From positions 532 through 64,531 of the forward strand of contig CALUJA010000015.1 in the NCBI GenBank assembly GCA_944320845.1: a stretch of 64,000 nucleotides of DNA, in the 5' to 3' direction. Under the pieces are notes generated by a model that saw nothing but the letters and a program-made list of their open reading frames with translations, was not told the DNA's origin and did no database searches. Source of the DNA: an uncultured Phocaeicola sp. Its GTDB lineage: Bacteria > Bacteroidota > Bacteroidia > Bacteroidales > Bacteroidaceae. Within the stretch, counting starts at the first letter, position 1. Every line of letters starts with the position of its first letter. This document shows, piece by piece, positions 21,896 through 45,805 of this stretch. Position numbers and translations under genes: made by a program.

Positions 21896-22756
21896 ATGGA
21901 ACAGACATTCGCCAAATATATCAATGTAAACGGACAACTGATGGACTTGTCTTATCCGAGGGTGATGGGGATACTGAACATCACGCCGGATTCTTTTTAT
22001 GCAGGCAGCCGCATGCAGACGGAAACGGAGATTGTGCAGCGCGCCGTCCGGATTGTCCGCGAGGGAGGAAGCATTATCGATGTGGGAGCCTACTCTTCGC
22101 GCCCGAACGCTGAGCACATCTCCCCGCAGGAAGAGATGGAACGCCTGCGCAAAGGACTGCGGGCCATACGCCGCGAACTGCCGGACGCCGTAATCTCTGT
22201 CGATACATTCCGGGCGGATGTGGCCCGCATGTGCGTGGAAGAATACGGAACAGGCATCATCAACGACATTTCAGCAGGCAATATGGATGAAAACATGTTT
22301 CCTACCATCGCCCGGTTGGGAGTCCCCTACGTGATGATGCACATGCAAGGCACCCCGCAAGACATGCAGCTCCACCCGCACTACGGGAATATCGTGAAAG
22401 AGGTGCTGTATTATTTTTCCGAGAAAGTGCAGAAGCTGCGCGACATGGGGGCCAAAGACCTGATTATCGACCCCGGTTTCGGATTCGGGAAGACACTGGA
22501 GCACAATTATGAACTGCTGAACAAGATGGAAGAGCTGCAGATATTCGAACTTCCCGTGTTGGTAGGCGTGTCGCGCAAGTCGATGATTTACAAACTGCTT
22601 GACAAAACGCCCGATACGGCCCTGAACGGGACGAGCATTGTCCATGCCATCGCCCTGATGAAAGGAGCCGACATCCTGCGCGTGCATGACGTAAAGGCCG
22701 CGACAGAAGCCATACGGATTGTAGCCGCCATGAAAAACCTAAAACCTGAAGAATAA
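21896..22756 (+). CDS. folP: Dihydropteroate synthase
   Basis: MGILNITPDSF, DPGFGFGK, VSRKS, RVHDV. Confidence 0.97.
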   Translation: MEQTFAKYINVNGQLMDLSYPRVMGILNITPDSFYAGSRMQTETEIVQRAVRIVREGGSIIDVGAYSSRPNAEHISPQEEMERLRKGLRAIRRELPDAVISVDTFRADVARMCVEEYGTGIINDISAGNMDENMFPTIARLGVPYVMMHMQGTPQDMQLHPHYGNIVKEVLYYFSEKVQKLRDMGAKDLIIDPGFGFGKTLEHNYELLNKMEELQIFELPVLVGVSRKSMIYKLLDKTPDTALNGTSIVHAIALMKGADILRVHDVKAATEAIRIVAAMKNLKPEE

Positions 22757-22767
22757 AAACCACGATT

Positions 22768-23541
22768 ATGCCTTTCGATATTCATATACTGACGCTGAAG
22801 GATATCCTGGATATCCTGCTGGTCGCATTTCTGCTCTACAAAACCTACAAGCTGATGAAGTCATCCGGCTCCATCAACATATTCACCGGAATTTTGGTAT
22901 TTATCATCATCTGGGTTATCGTGTCGCAAGTCTTGCAGATGCGCCTGCTGGGCTCGATTTTCGACAAGTTGGTAAGTGTGGGAGTCATTGCCATCATCGT
23001 CTTGTTCCAGGAGGAAATCCGCCGCTTTCTGCTTACACTCGGCTCGCGCCACCACAGCAGCAGCTGGCTCCGGTTCTTGCGAGGGAACAAGAAGACCGAG
23101 ACCAACAAGGAGGATATCATGCCCATCGTCATGGCTTGCCTGAGCATGAGCAAGGGAAAGGTAGGGGCATTGATTGTGATGGAAAAGAATTTCCCGCTGG
23201 ATGACATTGTGCGAACGGGCGATGTGATAGATGCCAATGTTAACCAGCGCCTGATTGAAAACATTTTCTTCAAGAACAGCCCCCTGCACGACGGGGCCAT
23301 GATTATCAGCAACAAGCGCATAAAGGCGGCCGGATGCATTCTGCCGGTATCCCACAACCTGGATATCCCAAAAGAACTGGGACTAAGACACCGGGCTGCC
23401 TTAGGCATCTCGCAGGAGACCGATGCCATGGCCATCATCGTATCCGAAGAAACGGGAGGCATATCAATAGCCTATCACGGGCAGTTTTATCTGAAACTGA
23501 GTGCGGAGGAACTGGAACGCATGCTGACCGCCGACAACTGA
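22768..23541 (+). CDS. cdaA: Diadenylate cyclase (CdaA/DacA, TIGR00159-type)
   Basis: 3 N-terminal TM helices, PLHDGA and LGLRHRAA DAC motifs. Confidence 0.95.
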   Translation: MPFDIHILTLKDILDILLVAFLLYKTYKLMKSSGSINIFTGILVFIIIWVIVSQVLQMRLLGSIFDKLVSVGVIAIIVLFQEEIRRFLLTLGSRHHSSSWLRFLRGNKKTETNKEDIMPIVMACLSMSKGKVGALIVMEKNFPLDDIVRTGDVIDANVNQRLIENIFFKNSPLHDGAMIISNKRIKAAGCILPVSHNLDIPKELGLRHRAALGISQETDAMAIIVSEETGGISIAYHGQFYLKLSAEELERMLTADN

Positions 23542-23791
23542 CCGCCGCAACGAAGCCGAACCTTTTTCTTTACACATGCGCCGCGCACACATACGCACCG
23601 CACAGCGCCATGACAGCCGCAGTTTTCCGGCGAAGCCTCATCATAATACATTTATAAAATATAAGACCGGCCGAACCCGTAAGACAACCTAAACCTCACG
23701 GCGGAATAAAAGAAGAACAAGATGCCGGCCGCCTCTTCCACCCGTACATTCCGCCCGCGAACGCAACATGCGGCAGGATTCTGATTCAAGC

Positions 23792-23923
23792 TGTTCATAA
23801 ACATGGCGGGAATATTCTTTCGGGGAGACTTATCAACACATTTATTTTACTGATTGCCAAACCAATATTGAGTTATCAACCGAAAAGAAGAAAGCTGTTA
23901 ATAACTTTTCAACCTGTTGATAA
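23792..23923. promoter_or_regulatory. Cluster of six DnaA-box-like 9-mers
   Basis: TTATGAACA(-,23792), TTATCAACA(+,23830), TTATCAACC(+,23873), TTATTAACA(-,23896), TTTTCAACC(+,23906), TTATCAACA(-,23915). Confidence 0.65.
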
Positions 23924-23971
23924 CTTGATTTCTCATCAGGCTTCCGGCTTTTTCCCCCTCATACGGGGCTG

Positions 23972-24003
23972 CAAAGATACAACTTTTTCCGGAAAGACCA
24001 CAA
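23972..24003 (-). promoter_or_regulatory. Orphan sigmaA promoter firing leftward into a non-coding region
   Basis: Minus strand TTG-N21-TATCTTTGCA; only 8- and 12-codon ORFs seen just downstream and no ORF-track minus ORF before the cdaA stop. Confidence 0.7.
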
Positions 24004-24034
24004 TGATGCCTCAATTCTGCCCCGCAATATTTTT

Positions 24035-24151
24035 TGTTTTTCACATTCCCGGCAAAGGTTTTTCCATTGCCTCCCAGATTTTTTCTAAGGAGAAAAATCA
24101 GTTTTCTCAGGAGGAAAAACTTTTTTCACGAGGGCATGCGATTCTTCTTTC
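24035..24151. repeat. Intergenic array copy with 21-bp period
   Basis: TTTTC ends at 24042, 24064, 24085, 24106, 24127. Confidence 0.7.
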
Positions 24152-24179
24152 CAGCAAGAAATCAAGCCGGTAACCGACT

Positions 24180-24875
24180 TCAATACAGTCCCAACAGATG
24201 CAGGATGGTGGGCGACAGCAGTGCTGTGAGGATTCCATTGAGGGTCAGTCCCAGGCTGGCATAGGCCCCGTACTTCCCGCTTACCTCCATCGCGCGCGAT
24301 GTCCCTACGGCATGACTGGCCGTCCCCATCGAAAGTCCCTGGGCTATGGGGCTGCCTACGTGTCCCACCTGAAGAACCTTGAATCCGCATATCGCGCCAA
24401 ACAGCCCGACCACTATCACAACCGCCGCCGTCAAAGACGGAATGCCGCCCACGGCATTGGACACTTCCATCGCTATGGGGGTGGTTACAGATTTCGGAGC
24501 CAGCGACATGACCACTTCGGGCGAAGCTCCCAGAATTTTCGCTATGACCGCCACCGAAACAAGTCCGACAATACACCCTGCCAGCTGAGAGACAAGGATG
24601 GGCATCCACTGCTTACGAATCATACGCAACTGCAAATACAGGGGAACGCCCAGTGCCACCACCGCCGGCTTCAGCCAAAACTCCACCAACGAACCGGCCT
24701 CGGAGTATTTCTCATAAGAAACGCCGGAAAACTTCAGGAAACAAATCAACAGGGCTATGGCCACCAGAATAGGATTCAGCAACAGCGAACCCGTCTTCCT
24801 CTGCAAAAGCTTCGAAAGGAAAAAGAATCCGAACGTAATGGCCAGCAAAAAAAACTTATTTTCTAAAAACTCCAT
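24180..24875 (-). CDS. lrgB: LrgB family membrane protein
   Basis: PAVVALGVPLY, SLAPKSVTTPIA, SHAVGT motifs. Confidence 0.95.
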   Translation of the reverse strand: MEFLENKFFLLAITFGFFFLSKLLQRKTGSLLLNPILVAIALLICFLKFSGVSYEKYSEAGSLVEFWLKPAVVALGVPLYLQLRMIRKQWMPILVSQLAGCIVGLVSVAVIAKILGASPEVVMSLAPKSVTTPIAMEVSNAVGGIPSLTAAVVIVVGLFGAICGFKVLQVGHVGSPIAQGLSMGTASHAVGTSRAMEVSGKYGAYASLGLTLNGILTALLSPTILHLLGLY

Positions 24876-25206
24876 ATTTACGAACCAATTGATGAACCCA
24901 TCCTGTCACGACCAGCACCAGGATTGTGCTGAGCAGCGTGGCTATAACTATCGGCCAAAACTGTGCCTGAATAATATCAAAATAGAGCATGAGCGCGACT
25001 CCCGACGGTACGAAAAAGAACCCAAGATTGGCGACAAGGAAATTAGTCAATCCTTGTACCCACTCGAGCTTTATCCAGCCCAACTGCAAGAAAAGAGTAA
25101 GCAGCAACATCCCGATAATACTGGACGGCAATCTGACTCCCGTCAGGGAAACAACCAGTTCGCCCAACGCTAAACATCCGAAAAGGATGGAACACTGACG
25201 TATCAT
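24856..25206 (-). CDS. lrgA: CidA/LrgA family membrane protein
   Basis: PSSIIGMLLL, FFFVPSGV; overlaps lrgB; -7 box at 25235-25242. Confidence 0.93.
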   Translation of the reverse strand: MIRQCSILFGCLALGELVVSLTGVRLPSSIIGMLLLTLFLQLGWIKLEWVQGLTNFLVANLGFFFVPSGVALMLYFDIIQAQFWPIVIATLLSTILVLVVTGWVHQLVRKYGVFRK

Positions 25207-25438
25207 ATAATCTAACACTTATTGAAAACCGGCGCAAAGTTAGGCATAAACCGCAAACCGGAAGCAAATCCTTTGTCTTTTTACAAACCCTGCCTTTAAA
25301 CATACGGTTTTTGCATACTTTAAACCAAAAAAAATCCGTTTTTGCCAACCTGATATTACAAAAATGCCTACTTTTGCATTGCGACAAAAACGGTTTGCCG
25401 CCGATAATAACGAACACAACTTTAATCAATATACCATC

Positions 25439-26452
25439 ATGGATCTAATTAGTCAAATCGTTGAACGCGCAAAAGCGAATAAACAGCGCATCGTACTTCC
25501 GGAAGGAACCGAAGAACGTACCTTGAAAGCCGCCAACCAAATCTTGACAGACGGCGTAGCAGACCTGATTCTCTTGGGCAAGCCAGACGAAATCATGGCT
25601 CTTGCCAAAGAGTGGGGATTGGGAAACATCCATAAGGCCACCATCATAGACCCCGAAACAAATCCGAAAAAAGAAGAATATGCCCAACTGCTGTGCGAAC
25701 TCCGCAAGAAAAAAGGCATGACCATCGAGGAAGCACGCGAGCTGGTGCTGAACCCGCTATATTTAGGCTGTCTTATCATCAAGTCTGGCGATGCCGACGG
25801 ACAGTTGGCCGGCGCCCGCAACACAACGGGCGATGTGCTTCGTCCGGCTTTGCAGATTATCAAGACCGCTCCGGGCATTACCTGCGTATCGGGAGCCATG
25901 CTGATGCTGACACATGCTCCTGAATGCGGCGACAACGGCGTGTTGGTAATGGGAGACGTTGCCGTCACTCCGGTGCCGGATGCCAGCCAGCTGGCCCAGA
26001 TTGCCGTATGCACCGCACGTACCGCCCAGGCCGTTGCCGGCCTTGACCCGCGGGTAGCCATGTTGAGCTTCTCAACGAAAGGCTCTGCAAAGCATGAAGT
26101 GGTAGACAAGGTAGTGGAAGCCTTGAAGATTGCCAAAGAACTGGCTCCCGATTTAAAGATTGACGGCGAAATGCAAGCGGATGCCGCTCTCGTTCCGAGA
26201 ATCGGCGCAAGCAAAGCACCGGGGTCAGAAATCGCCGGAAAGGCCAACGTACTGGTCGTTCCCTGCCTGGAAGTCGGAAACATCTCCTACAAACTGGTGG
26301 AACGCTTGGGACACGCCACTGCCATCGGCCCAATCCTGCAAGGTATTGCCCGTCCGGTAAACGACTTGTCACGCGGATGCTGCATCGATGACGTATACAA
26401 AATGATTGCCATCACAGCCAATCAGGCGATTGCGGCCAAGGCAAACCAGTAA
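25439..26452 (+). CDS. pta: Phosphate acetyltransferase
   Basis: RIVLPEG, SFSTKGS, DGEMQADAA, GNISYK; -7 box TACTTTTG at 25369. Confidence 0.97.
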   Translation: MDLISQIVERAKANKQRIVLPEGTEERTLKAANQILTDGVADLILLGKPDEIMALAKEWGLGNIHKATIIDPETNPKKEEYAQLLCELRKKKGMTIEEARELVLNPLYLGCLIIKSGDADGQLAGARNTTGDVLRPALQIIKTAPGITCVSGAMLMLTHAPECGDNGVLVMGDVAVTPVPDASQLAQIAVCTARTAQAVAGLDPRVAMLSFSTKGSAKHEVVDKVVEALKIAKELAPDLKIDGEMQADAALVPRIGASKAPGSEIAGKANVLVVPCLEVGNISYKLVERLGHATAIGPILQGIARPVNDLSRGCCIDDVYKMIAITANQAIAAKANQ

Positions 26453-45297: not shown

Positions 45298-45474
45298 TTA
45301 CCAGAACTTGTTCTGCTCTTCGCTGTATTCAAATCCGGCTTCCTTCAGACGGCCTACAATCTCCGACTTGCTGACATGGAGGTCTTCACACAACGCGTCG
45401 AGTGAAGGATAAAAGTCACGCAGCTTCATGTTGATGACGCTGAAAAGCATCATCGGGTCTTTTGGCAATTCCAT
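45298..45474 (-). CDS. DUF4250 family small protein (58 aa, not in ORF track)
   Basis: Manual translation MELPKDPMMLFSVINMKLRDFYPSLDALCEDLHVSKSEIVGRLKEAGFEYSEEQNKFW; -7 box at 45502-45509. Confidence 0.9.
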   Translation of the reverse strand: MELPKDPMMLFSVINMKLRDFYPSLDALCEDLHVSKSEIVGRLKEAGFEYSEEQNKFW

Positions 45475-45599
45475 AGTCTGTAATCTTTTTCAAATGCGCC
45501 GCAAAGTTACGCTTTTTTCCAAACGGCTGTTCCCCTCCGTCCTTTCTTTGCCCGCATTTTATCAATATTTTACCAAAATCCGTCCTCCCCGACCCCGCC

Positions 45600-45690
45600 C
45601 GGCATGAAAGTCCCGTTTCGCCGCAAGGAAAAATCTTTTCCGCCGGCCCGAAAAACATTTTCCACCGCCGCCGCAATCTTCCCCCGCCGA
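45600..45690. repeat. Intergenic array copy with 21-22 bp period
   Basis: GAAA at 45606, 45628, 45650; TTTC ends at 45619, 45640, 45662. Confidence 0.7.
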
Positions 45691-45805
45691 AGAAAGAAAA
45701 TAAATACTAAAGTTTCAAAGGCAAGTCCTGTCAAATCAGGAAAAAGCATTAACTTTGCAACCTGATTTTATTAAGGATTACCAACACCTAATTTTTATCA
45801 AAAAA

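What the first reader, a model, noticed from the sequence alone, without database searches (positions are those of the whole stretch)
23640..23923. oriC-like DnaA-box cluster at a site where strand bias does not switch
Seen: six TTATCAACA-type 9-mers in both orientations within 132 bp, AT-rich spacers, and an AT-rich patch at about 23642-23665. By eye, plus-strand genes on both sides prefer C-ending codons and minus-strand genes prefer G/T-ending codons, so there is no skew inversion here. Established: these are 1-2 mismatch variants of the TTATCCACA DnaA box; I recall TTATCAACA at the B. fragilis origin region. Inference: a non-origin DnaA-binding locus (datA/DARS-like titration or reactivation site, or a dormant origin), which I do not know to be described in Bacteroidota.
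Basis: partly seen in the sequence, partly recalled or inferred. Interest (0 to 1): 0.65.

Follow-up and report, generated by a model that had tools for sequence, protein, structure and literature searches.

The report
Non-origin DnaA-box cluster in Phocaeicola
A gut Phocaeicola genome carries its densest cluster of replication-initiator (DnaA-type) binding motifs away from the replication origin; the cluster is conserved and outlived the gene that once contained it, so it is a credible but untested candidate for a replication-control site in a phylum where none is described.

Summary
Five TTATNAACA 9-mers (a sixth is weak) lie in 132 bp (23792-23923). This is the densest such cluster in the 2.8-Mb genome, and no shuffle approached it.

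It is not the origin. GC skew stays negative across the contig. The only V-shaped skew minimum is on another contig, at trmH/nadA. The homologous spot is also the skew switch in a 4-Mb relative, where the cdaA-linked boxes lie about 140 kb away.

The same extended word, (A)GTTATCAACAG, is the top enriched word at that origin region in eight genomes. It also sits conserved just upstream of the ribonucleotide-reductase promoter in eleven. DnaA is therefore the likeliest reader.

In most Phocaeicola the boxes lie inside a GNAT acetyltransferase gene, with frozen synonymous sites. In three independent lineages, including this one, the gene was lost but the boxes stayed. Against its nearest relative, 1 of 45 box positions differs, versus 34% of the rest of the gap.

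Best reading (about 0.55): a DnaA-binding regulatory locus of the datA/DARS/DBC kind, restricted to this genus. Binding and function are untested. A hairpin role or another binding protein remain live rivals. A dormant origin is unlikely.

The parts
23792..23800 (-). DnaA-type box TTATGAACA (variant at consensus position 5)
   Evidence: Identical in the nearest relative L007 while its flanks diverge. 13.2 bits with the matrix built from origin boxes.
23830..23838 (+). DnaA-type box TTATCAACA (perfect)
   Evidence: Identical in L007. 15.5 bits. Relatives that keep the gene have weaker versions here (TTTTCAACA, TTTTGCACA).
23873..23881 (+). Box TTATCAACC, left member of the conserved three-box core
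   Evidence: TTATCAACA in L007 and most relatives. This is the single box difference between the window and L007.
23896..23904 (-). Box TTATTAACA, middle member of the core, 14 bp from the left box
   Evidence: 15.7 bits. It encodes Leu-Leu-Thr in the GNAT gene of relatives, with the TTA TTA ACA codons 92-93% conserved.
23906..23914 (+). Weak sixth 9-mer TTTTCAACC (two mismatches)
Evidence: 7.1 bits. I do not count it as a site.
23915..23923 (-). Box TTATCAACA (perfect), right member of the core, 10 bp from the middle box
   Evidence: 19.2 bits, the best site in the cluster. TGTTGAAAA or TGTTGATAA in relatives.
23866..23926 (.). Conserved three-box core module: box(+) N14 box(-) N10 box(-)
   Evidence: About 60 of 61 positions are identical to L007, while the rest of the gap differs at 34%. 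The box block 23792-23930 is the only part of the gap with DNA matches in other species. The strict module was found only in the genus.
23542..24179 (.). 638-bp gap between convergent cdaA and lrgB: decayed remnant of a lost GNAT plus DUF2156 (LPG_synthase_C) gene pair
   Evidence: Relatives carry the two minus-strand genes here. The genes are absent from the whole genome, and only weak collinear tblastn remnants remain in the gap.
23972..23979 (-). Bacteroides-type -7 promoter element TAtcTTTG on the minus strand, with ATTG 21 nt upstream at 24001-24004; it would send transcripts leftwards through the boxes
   Evidence: Read from the sequence. Kept as TAtaTTTG in L007, with only the two free positions changed. 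No expression data were available.
23642..23665 (.).
   Evidence: Only partly conserved in L007. It lies 127 bp from the nearest box.
22768..23541 (+). cdaA (diadenylate cyclase), left flank
   Evidence: Pfam DAC and CdaA_N.
24180..24875 (-). lrgB, right flank, with its own terminator-like hairpin at 24164-24180
   Evidence: Pfam LrgB. Terminator scan.

Best explanation
The site is a non-origin cluster of binding sites for the replication initiator DnaA, whose box in this genus reads TTATNAACA (extended form AAGTTATCAACAG).

History: a three-box module, box(+) N14 box(-) N10 box(-), arose within Phocaeicola inside the linker-coding part of a GNAT acetyltransferase gene between cdaA and lrgBA. 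It has been kept there by selection on the DNA itself. In this genome's lineage the GNAT and DUF2156 genes decayed. The module survived as a free-standing island and now has five good boxes.

Mechanism (inferred): several DnaA molecules bind side by side on the cluster away from oriC. This changes how much active initiator is free for the origin. It could work by simple titration, as proposed for E. coli datA and the B. subtilis DnaA-box clusters. It could also work by changing DnaA's nucleotide state, as at datA or DARS.

Shown here: non-random clustering, non-origin position, the same word at the origin, and purifying selection on the boxes. Inferred: DnaA binding, and any effect on initiation.
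For: 1. Densest cluster in the genome.
2. Not the origin. Skew is negative throughout C15. The only V-shaped minimum is at C1 about 58 kb, at trmH/nadA. Its homologue is the skew switch in relative G015, at about 3.79 Mb, with the cdaA-linked boxes 140 kb away. The distance is 479 kb in G060 and 783 kb in G058.
3. Same reader as at the origin. In an unbiased 8-mer count over the origin region of 8 genomes, TATCAACA is the most frequent of the enriched words (24 seen, 0.66 expected). ATCAACAG and TATTAACA are also enriched. A matrix built from origin boxes alone ranks the window second in the genome, after the origin.
4. A conserved AAGTTATNAACA box lies just upstream of the -33 element of the ribonucleotide-reductase promoter in 11 genomes. 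From established knowledge, reductase genes are classic DnaA targets in E. coli.
5. Box variation sits at position 5 (C, T or G), which is the N of the E. coli consensus TTATNCACA.
6. Selection on the DNA. In the GNAT gene the box codons TTA TTA ACA and CCT GTT GAT AAC are 92-100% identical, against a gene-wide mean of 60%. One clade reads the same DNA in another frame, KVIN instead of KLLT.
7. Three independent gene losses kept the boxes: window/L007, L032 and L014/L015. In L014/L015 three boxes fill a 128-bp spacer.
8. Window versus L007: 1 of 45 box positions differs against 212 of 622 elsewhere in the gap; Fisher p = 5e-7.
9. The strict inverted pair occurs once, sometimes twice, per genome in 41 of 108 genomes of the genus. 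The reversed control pattern gave zero hits.
Against: - No binding data of any kind.
- The dnaA promoter of this genome has no box cluster, so the usual autoregulation control for the motif is missing.
- The module is not universal. The second-closest relative, L008, has the genes but no box pair. Three gene-loss lineages (L018, L041, L056) lost the boxes too.
- The module is absent from 285 genomes of 34 other genera of the family, so it cannot be essential.
- The distance to the origin varies from 140 to 783 kb. There is no fixed early-replicating position.
- The inverted pair can form a hairpin. At a second locus (the pyrH spacer in other species) it is embedded in a 23-bp perfect hairpin flanked by an A-tract and a T-tract.
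- DnaA here differs from E. coli at two base-contact residues, P423S and T435A. Its true specificity is therefore unknown.
Confidence: 0.55

Rival explanations
1. The conserved feature is the hairpin, not the boxes. The inverted pair would form an RNA or DNA stem-loop that acts as a terminator or insulator between convergent genes, or as an mRNA structure.
For: - At the pyrH / histidine-phosphatase convergent spacer of G046, G103 and G009, the pair sits in a 23-bp perfect hairpin with an A-tract and a T-tract. Its energy is -24.6 kcal/mol, z = -7.
- In L014/L015 the core, with A/T tracts, fills the whole 128-bp convergent cdaA-lrgB spacer.
- The window core folds at -15.4 kcal/mol, z = -3.6.
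- After the gene loss, cdaA and lrgB became convergent neighbours, which could favour keeping a hairpin.
Against: - In most species the pair lies in the middle of an ORF, where a sense-strand terminator makes no sense.
- At box position 5 all four arm combinations occur. 14 of 19 are a C-A mismatch on the plus strand, and others are a mismatch on the minus strand, so pairing is not protected on either strand.
- No compensatory changes are seen, because the stem positions are invariant.
- The extra tandem boxes at a 19-bp period, and the two left boxes, are outside any hairpin yet conserved.
- Unrelated loci share the same arm sequence, which ordinary terminators do not.
- The window has no U-tract after the stem, and the terminator scan finds nothing there. 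lrgB has its own terminator at 24164-24180.
Confidence: 0.15
2. The boxes are read by a sequence-specific DNA-binding protein other than DnaA, for example a lineage-specific regulator or nucleoid protein with a 12-bp half-site AGTTATCAACAG.
For: - The invariant unit is 12 nt, longer than a 9-mer DnaA box.
- The module is restricted to the genus.
- There is no box cluster at the dnaA promoter.
- The boxes upstream of nadA could in principle belong to an NAD regulator.
Against: - The word is a one-mismatch variant of the universal DnaA box, with its variation at the known free position.
- It is enriched in three separate intergenic stretches spread over 1.8 kb exactly at the skew switch in 8 genomes, not only at the nadA promoter.
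- It is conserved at the ribonucleotide-reductase promoter.
- The variable orientations and spacings fit DnaA arrays better than a dimeric operator.
Confidence: 0.13
3. DnaA binds, but the job is local transcription control. The array would act as a roadblock or regulator for the minus-strand promoter at 23972-23979 and the roughly 400-nt non-coding transcript it would make, or for antisense read-through from cdaA. It would not control initiator supply.
For: - The TAnnTTTG element is conserved in L007, with only the free positions changed.
- The boxes lie about +40 to +180 downstream of it.
- From established knowledge, DnaA-box complexes block RNA polymerase in E. coli (asnC, guaB), and several B. 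subtilis clusters regulate neighbouring genes (PMC3245932).
Against: - Relatives that keep the genes have no promoter at this distance, yet they conserve the boxes. The promoter therefore cannot explain the older conservation.
- No expression data could be obtained.
Confidence: 0.1
4. A dormant or secondary replication origin.
For: A dense box cluster with a small AT-rich patch 127 bp away.
Against: - No skew disturbance in this genome or in G015.
- The site is inside a coding gene in most relatives.
- The AT patch is short and poorly conserved.
- A well-supported origin exists at trmH/nadA.
Confidence: 0.03
5. A neutral relic. The 9-mers are leftovers of the decayed GNAT coding sequence and have no present function.
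For: The block is homologous to codons of about 125-165 of the GNAT gene.
Against: - The rest of the pseudogene has diverged beyond recognition, while box positions differ at 1 of 45 against L007.
- Weak ancestral positions have become perfect boxes in the window.
- Three independent losses retained the core.
- Synonymous sites were already frozen in the intact genes.
Confidence: 0.04

Closest known systems
Bacillus subtilis non-oriC DnaA-box clusters (six DBCs; Okumura et al. 2012, PMC3245932)
   Same: Clusters of DnaA boxes outside oriC that lie between genes. Their deletion makes initiation early, and some also regulate neighbouring genes. This is the best functional analogy for a box cluster with no other recognisable partner sites.
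   Different: There is no sequence relation. DnaA binding is shown by ChIP for the B. subtilis clusters but not here. Those clusters are mostly origin-proximal, whereas this site lies 140-783 kb from the origin depending on the species. In most Phocaeicola this cluster lies inside an ORF.
Escherichia coli datA
   Same: A single chromosomal locus with about five high-affinity DnaA boxes that lowers initiation potential (as summarised in PMC3245932).
   Different: From established knowledge, datA needs an IHF site and promotes DnaA-ATP hydrolysis. No IHF-type site can be recognised here, and no activity was tested. Phylum, sequence and genomic context all differ.
Escherichia coli DARS1 / DARS2
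   Same: [quoted passage not shown] The Phocaeicola core has the same topology: one inverted box plus two tandem boxes.
   Different: DARS boxes I and II are 5 bp apart, whereas here the gap is 14 bp, then 10 bp. I could not establish whether the inverted pair here is head-to-head in the DARS sense. ADP release was not tested. In G015 the third box is on the other side, giving a mirrored module.
Predicted oriC of Bacteroidales beside nadA
   Same: The same box word (TTATCAACA, extended by AG) in clusters.
   Different: The origin sits at the skew switch between trmH and nadA. The window site shows no skew switch and has no conserved unwinding element.

Membership tests
Chromosomal replication origin (oriC) | Lies at the GC-skew switch (minimum of cumulative skew) | tested here: not met
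   Skew is negative on both sides. The minimum is at C1 about 58 kb. In G015 the switch is 140 kb from the homologous site.
Chromosomal replication origin (oriC) | Cluster of DnaA boxes | tested here: met
   Five boxes in 132 bp.
Chromosomal replication origin (oriC) | Adjacent conserved AT-rich unwinding element | tested here: inconclusive
   There is a 24-bp AT patch 127 bp away, only partly conserved in L007. No equivalent exists in relatives that keep the genes, where the flanks are coding.
Chromosomal replication origin (oriC) | Replication starts there (marker frequency, autonomous replication) | not testable with these tools
Non-oriC DnaA-box cluster (B. subtilis DBC type) | Several DnaA boxes clustered outside oriC | tested here: met
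Non-oriC DnaA-box cluster (B. subtilis DBC type) | Stable DnaA binding in vivo (ChIP) | not testable with these tools
   There is indirect support only: the same extended word occurs at the origin and at the reductase promoter.
Non-oriC DnaA-box cluster (B. subtilis DBC type) | Deletion alters initiation timing | not testable with these tools
   Needs genetics.
datA | IHF-binding site between essential boxes; stimulates DnaA-ATP hydrolysis | not testable with these tools
   No IHF consensus is known for this phylum, and no assay was possible.
DARS | Three-box core, with boxes I and II opposite and II and III in the same direction | tested here: met
   The core is (+) N14 (-) N10 (-) in the window and relatives. 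The comparison is to PMC6868365.
DARS | 5-bp spacing between boxes I and II that allows a head-to-head DnaA dimer | tested here: not met
   The spacing is 13-14 bp in all species aligned.
DARS | Promotes ADP release from ADP-DnaA | not testable with these tools
   Biochemical assay.
Intrinsic (bidirectional) terminator | Stable stem-loop with a short loop, followed by a U-tract | tested here: not met
   For the window, the scan finds none at the boxes. The best fold has a 40-nt interior and no U-tract. At the pyrH locus of other species the criterion is met apart from the loop, which is 12 nt.
Intrinsic (bidirectional) terminator | Pairing maintained by compensatory change | tested here: not met
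   At the one variable stem position, all four arm combinations occur.

The most novel reading that the evidence does not exclude
Phocaeicola evolved its own initiator-control locus, functionally like datA or DARS. It is a three-box DnaA module written into the synonymous sites of a protein-coding gene. The module is selected strongly enough to outlive that gene in three lineages, and in some species it is duplicated in the same architecture at the pyrH locus. It would be the first replication-control element defined in Bacteroidota, and a clear case of a regulatory DNA element surviving the death of its host gene.
Probability: 0.33. Interest if true: 0.75.

Novelty: new member of a known kind. 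Interest (0 to 1): 0.57.

Why it matters
- My searches of the held paper library found no experimental work on initiation control in Bacteroidota, a dominant gut phylum.
- This site gives a short, defined DNA target: a 60-bp core, present once per genome in cultivable species such as P. plebeius, P. coprocola and P. barnesiae.
- The target can be tested directly by DnaA gel shift or ChIP, and by deletion or synonymous recoding with an ori:ter read-out.
- It also bears on growth-rate estimates from metagenome coverage, which assume a single origin, here at nadA.
- It is a clean example of DNA-level selection inside a coding sequence.

Tried and rejected
- Rfam at permissive threshold over 22500-25500 gave no RNA family. 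There are no tRNAs in the window.
- One search was mis-aimed. L001:1-638 turned out to be folP DNA just upstream of cdaA, not the gap. I used it only to locate the folP-cdaA locus in 99 genomes of the genus.
- The dnaA upstream region has no box cluster, so it gave no autoregulation control for the motif.
- A full-text search for TTATCAACA and two searches on Bacteroides oriC and DnaA boxes found no experimental work on Bacteroides DnaA boxes.
- The pyrH-linked second module is absent from this genome.
- The flanks of the gap (23542-23791 and 23924-24179) have no DNA homologue outside L007, so the origin of the minus-strand promoter could not be traced.
- The 48-aa and 50-aa minus-strand ORFs in the gap are not conserved in frame with L007 because of indels. 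I rejected them as genes.
No marker-frequency or transcript evidence could be obtained.

Full report
OBSERVATION

The region 23792-23923 holds five 9-mers within one mismatch of TTATCAACA:
- 23792 (-) TTATGAACA
- 23830 (+) TTATCAACA
- 23873 (+) TTATCAACC
- 23896 (-) TTATTAACA
- 23915 (-) TTATCAACA

A weak sixth, TTTTCAACC, lies at 23906. The repeat finder recovers the same units independently, as 16-nt direct repeats 19 bp apart and a 10-nt perfect inverted repeat.

The window is C15:532-64531 of a 2.8-Mb, 36-contig genome. Sites within one mismatch occur at 0.317 per kb genome-wide. This is the top cluster in the genome. With the strict motif TTATN[AC]ACA it is the only place with three or more sites in 200 bp. 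Poisson expectation for five sites in 132 bp anywhere in the genome is about 0.003. None of 5000 shuffles of the gap reached four sites.

CONTEXT

The flanking genes are:
- folP, 21896-22756 (+)
- cdaA, 22768-23541 (+)
- lrgB, 24180-24875 (-)
- lrgA, 24856-25218 (-)
- pta and ackA further on

. The boxes therefore sit in a 638-bp gap between convergent gene ends. CdaA relatives identify the organism as a Phocaeicola.

NOT THE ORIGIN

GC skew is negative in every 2-kb bin around the site, and contig C15 falls monotonically. Among all contigs, only C1 has a V-shaped cumulative-skew minimum, at about 58 kb. Only C9 has a clear maximum.

C1:56.8-58.65 kb holds a trmH-like gene and nadA, with three sub-clusters of the same boxes. 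dnaA is elsewhere, at C2:35035-36441, and not at a skew switch.

In relative G015 (a 4.03-Mb scaffold), sampled skew places the minus-to-plus switch at 3.785-3.790 Mb. That spot is homologous to C1:57102-59791. The cdaA-linked boxes lie at 3,652,068-3,652,119, about 140 kb away on the negative-skew arm. In G060 and G058 the nadA-to-cdaA distance is 479 and 783 kb.

WHO READS THE BOXES

I counted 8-mers without prior assumptions in the 1.9 kb upstream of nadA in eight genomes.
- TATCAACA is the most frequent of the strongly enriched words: 24 seen against 0.66 expected, and present in all eight.
- ATCAACAG, TTATCAAC and TATTAACA are enriched too.
- Box positions are conserved across the eight genomes.

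A matrix built only from these origin boxes ranks the window cluster second in the genome, after the origin itself. The window boxes share the flanks, AAGTTATCAACAGnT.

A third, independent context is the promoter of the ribonucleotide-reductase large-subunit gene (Pfam Ribonuc_red_lgC). An AAGTTATNAACA box lies just upstream of its -33 element and is conserved in all 11 genomes examined. It again varies only at position 5. Reductase genes are classic DnaA targets in E. coli (established knowledge).

Position 5 is the free position of the E. coli consensus TTATNCACA.

I aligned the genome's DnaA domain IV to PDB 1J1V. R399, D433, H434 and H439 are kept. P423 becomes S and T435 becomes A. This is compatible with an altered box (A instead of C at position 6), but it proves nothing.

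EVOLUTION OF THE SITE

In most Phocaeicola two minus-strand genes lie between cdaA and lrgB:
- a 341-aa GNAT acetyltransferase (Acetyltransf_9)
- a 296-aa LPG_synthase_C / DUF2156 protein

. Both are absent from this genome. Only weak collinear tblastn remnants remain in the gap.

In relatives the boxes lie inside the GNAT gene, just after the GNAT domain at about aa 125-145. The conserved core is AGTTATCAACAG-N11/12-CTGTTRATAACT, followed 10 nt later by TGTTGAWAA.

Codon use at the boxes is frozen. Leu-Leu-Thr is TTA TTA ACA in 92-93% of species. Pro-Val-Asp-Asn is CCT GTT GAT AAC in 100%. The gene-wide mean is 60%, and the other top-ranked columns are two-fold codons. One clade (L027, L030, L033) reads the same DNA in another frame, KVIN instead of KLLT. 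The protein segment is therefore not the constrained object.

On a folP-cdaA tree the gene pair was lost independently several times.
- Window/L007 (sister to gene-bearing L008), L032 (sister to L031) and L014/L015 kept the core. In L014/L015 three boxes fill a 128-bp cdaA-lrgB spacer.
- L018, L041 and L056 kept nothing.

Between the window and L007 (CdaA 98% identical), 1 of 45 box positions differs against 212 of 622 other gap positions; Fisher p = 5e-7. The box block is the only part of the gap with DNA matches in other species.

DISTRIBUTION

The strict inverted pair occurs in 41 of 108 genomes of the genus, once per genome and occasionally twice. The reversed control pattern gave zero hits.

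The strict three-box module was found in 5 of the 17 sampled Phocaeicola genomes, and in none of 285 genomes of 34 other genera of the family. The window itself misses the strict pattern because of its TTATCAACC box. The element is therefore young and genus-specific.

Second copies in G046, G103 and G009 lie in the short convergent spacer between pyrH and a histidine-phosphatase gene. They have the same architecture: box(+) N14 box(-) N10 box(-) N10 box(-). This genome lacks that copy.

THE HAIRPIN RIVAL

At the pyrH locus the pair is embedded in a 23-bp perfect hairpin flanked by an A-tract and a T-tract, at -24.6 kcal/mol and z = -7. It looks like a bidirectional terminator. The window core folds at -15.4 kcal/mol, z = -3.6.

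Five points count against a hairpin as the selected feature:
- In most species the site is in the middle of an ORF.
- The 12-nt arms are invariant, so no compensatory change can be seen.
- At the one variable stem position all four combinations occur, with mismatches on either strand.
- The tandem boxes at a 19-bp period, and the two left boxes, lie outside any stem yet are conserved.
- The window has no U-tract, and the terminator scan finds only lrgB's own terminator at 24164-24180.

I keep this rival at about 0.15. The two roles are not exclusive.

OTHER POINTS

A minus-strand Bacteroides-type promoter element lies to the right of the boxes: TAtcTTTG at 23972-23979, with ATTG 21 nt upstream. 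It is conserved in L007 with only its free positions changed. It would drive a non-coding transcript through the boxes, as another first-reader note proposed (e1-5245764).

COMPARISON WITH KNOWN SYSTEMS

The nearest analogues are:
- the six non-oriC DnaA-box clusters of B. subtilis (PMC3245932)
- E. coli datA
- E. coli DARS1 and DARS2

The three-box topology (one inverted, two tandem) matches the DARS core. The spacing does not: 14 bp here against 5 bp in DARS (PMC6868365). No IHF or Fis partner sites can be assessed. There is no sequence relation to any of them. My searches of the held library found no paper describing DnaA boxes or initiation control experimentally in Bacteroides.

VERDICT

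The non-origin status is well supported. Selection on the boxes is well supported. A role in controlling initiator availability is the best mechanistic guess, but nothing here tests it. I class it as a new member of a known kind (non-origin DnaA-box clusters), with the unusual history of an element embedded in a coding sequence that outlived its gene.

Noticed in passing
own genome, contig C1:56800-58650 (outside the window): Probable oriC. The only V-shaped GC-skew minimum lies between a trmH-like methylase gene and nadA, with three sub-clusters of TTATCAACA-type boxes. The homologous spot is the skew switch in relative G015. dnaA is unlinked, at C2:35035-36441.
   Followed up: yes
own genome, contig C4:61314-61331 (outside the window); L177-L186: A conserved AAGTTATNAACA box lies just upstream of the -33 element of the ribonucleotide-reductase promoter in all 11 Phocaeicola genomes examined. 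A conserved GGAAAACTT word occurs twice further upstream. This is a candidate DnaA-regulated promoter.
   Followed up: partly
window 23972-24004, minus strand: A Bacteroides-type promoter (ATTG, 21 nt, TAtcTTTG) is conserved in the nearest relative. It would transcribe a non-coding RNA leftwards through the box cluster towards the cdaA 3' end. No expression data were available.
   Followed up: partly
L169:1775-1850, L170, L176 (G046, G103, G009): A second copy of the box(+) N14 box(-) N10 box(-) module, with a fourth tandem box, lies in the convergent pyrH / histidine-phosphatase spacer. It is embedded in a 23-bp perfect hairpin flanked by an A-tract and a T-tract. L175 (G096) has a longer palindrome, apparently carrying about three box-like words per arm, next to an RNase HII-like gene (named from its N-terminus only).
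   Followed up: partly
G015:C1:3799168-3799358 (within L116): A five-box cluster, including two canonical TTATCCACA boxes, lies about 9 kb from the nadA skew switch of the relative G015. Its genomic context was not examined, and no homologous cluster was seen in this genome.
   Followed up: no
own genome, dnaA C2:35035-36441: DnaA domain IV keeps R399, D433, H434 and H439 of E. coli but has Ser for P423 and Ala for T435. Both are base-contact residues. This may go with the A at box position 6.
   Followed up: partly
window 25773-25949 and 45429-45803: Looser groups of one-mismatch boxes: three in 177 bp inside pta, and four in 375 bp. The window as a whole has 32 such 9-mers against 12.9 in dinucleotide shuffles (20 expected at the genome-wide rate). 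This is probably oligonucleotide or codon bias.
   Followed up: no
own genome, contigs C35 (81.9 kb, 57% GC) and C36 (3.85 kb, 33.5% GC): Two contigs depart in composition from the 49-51% GC typical of most contigs. They may be a foreign element, a plasmid or a binning contaminant.
   Followed up: no
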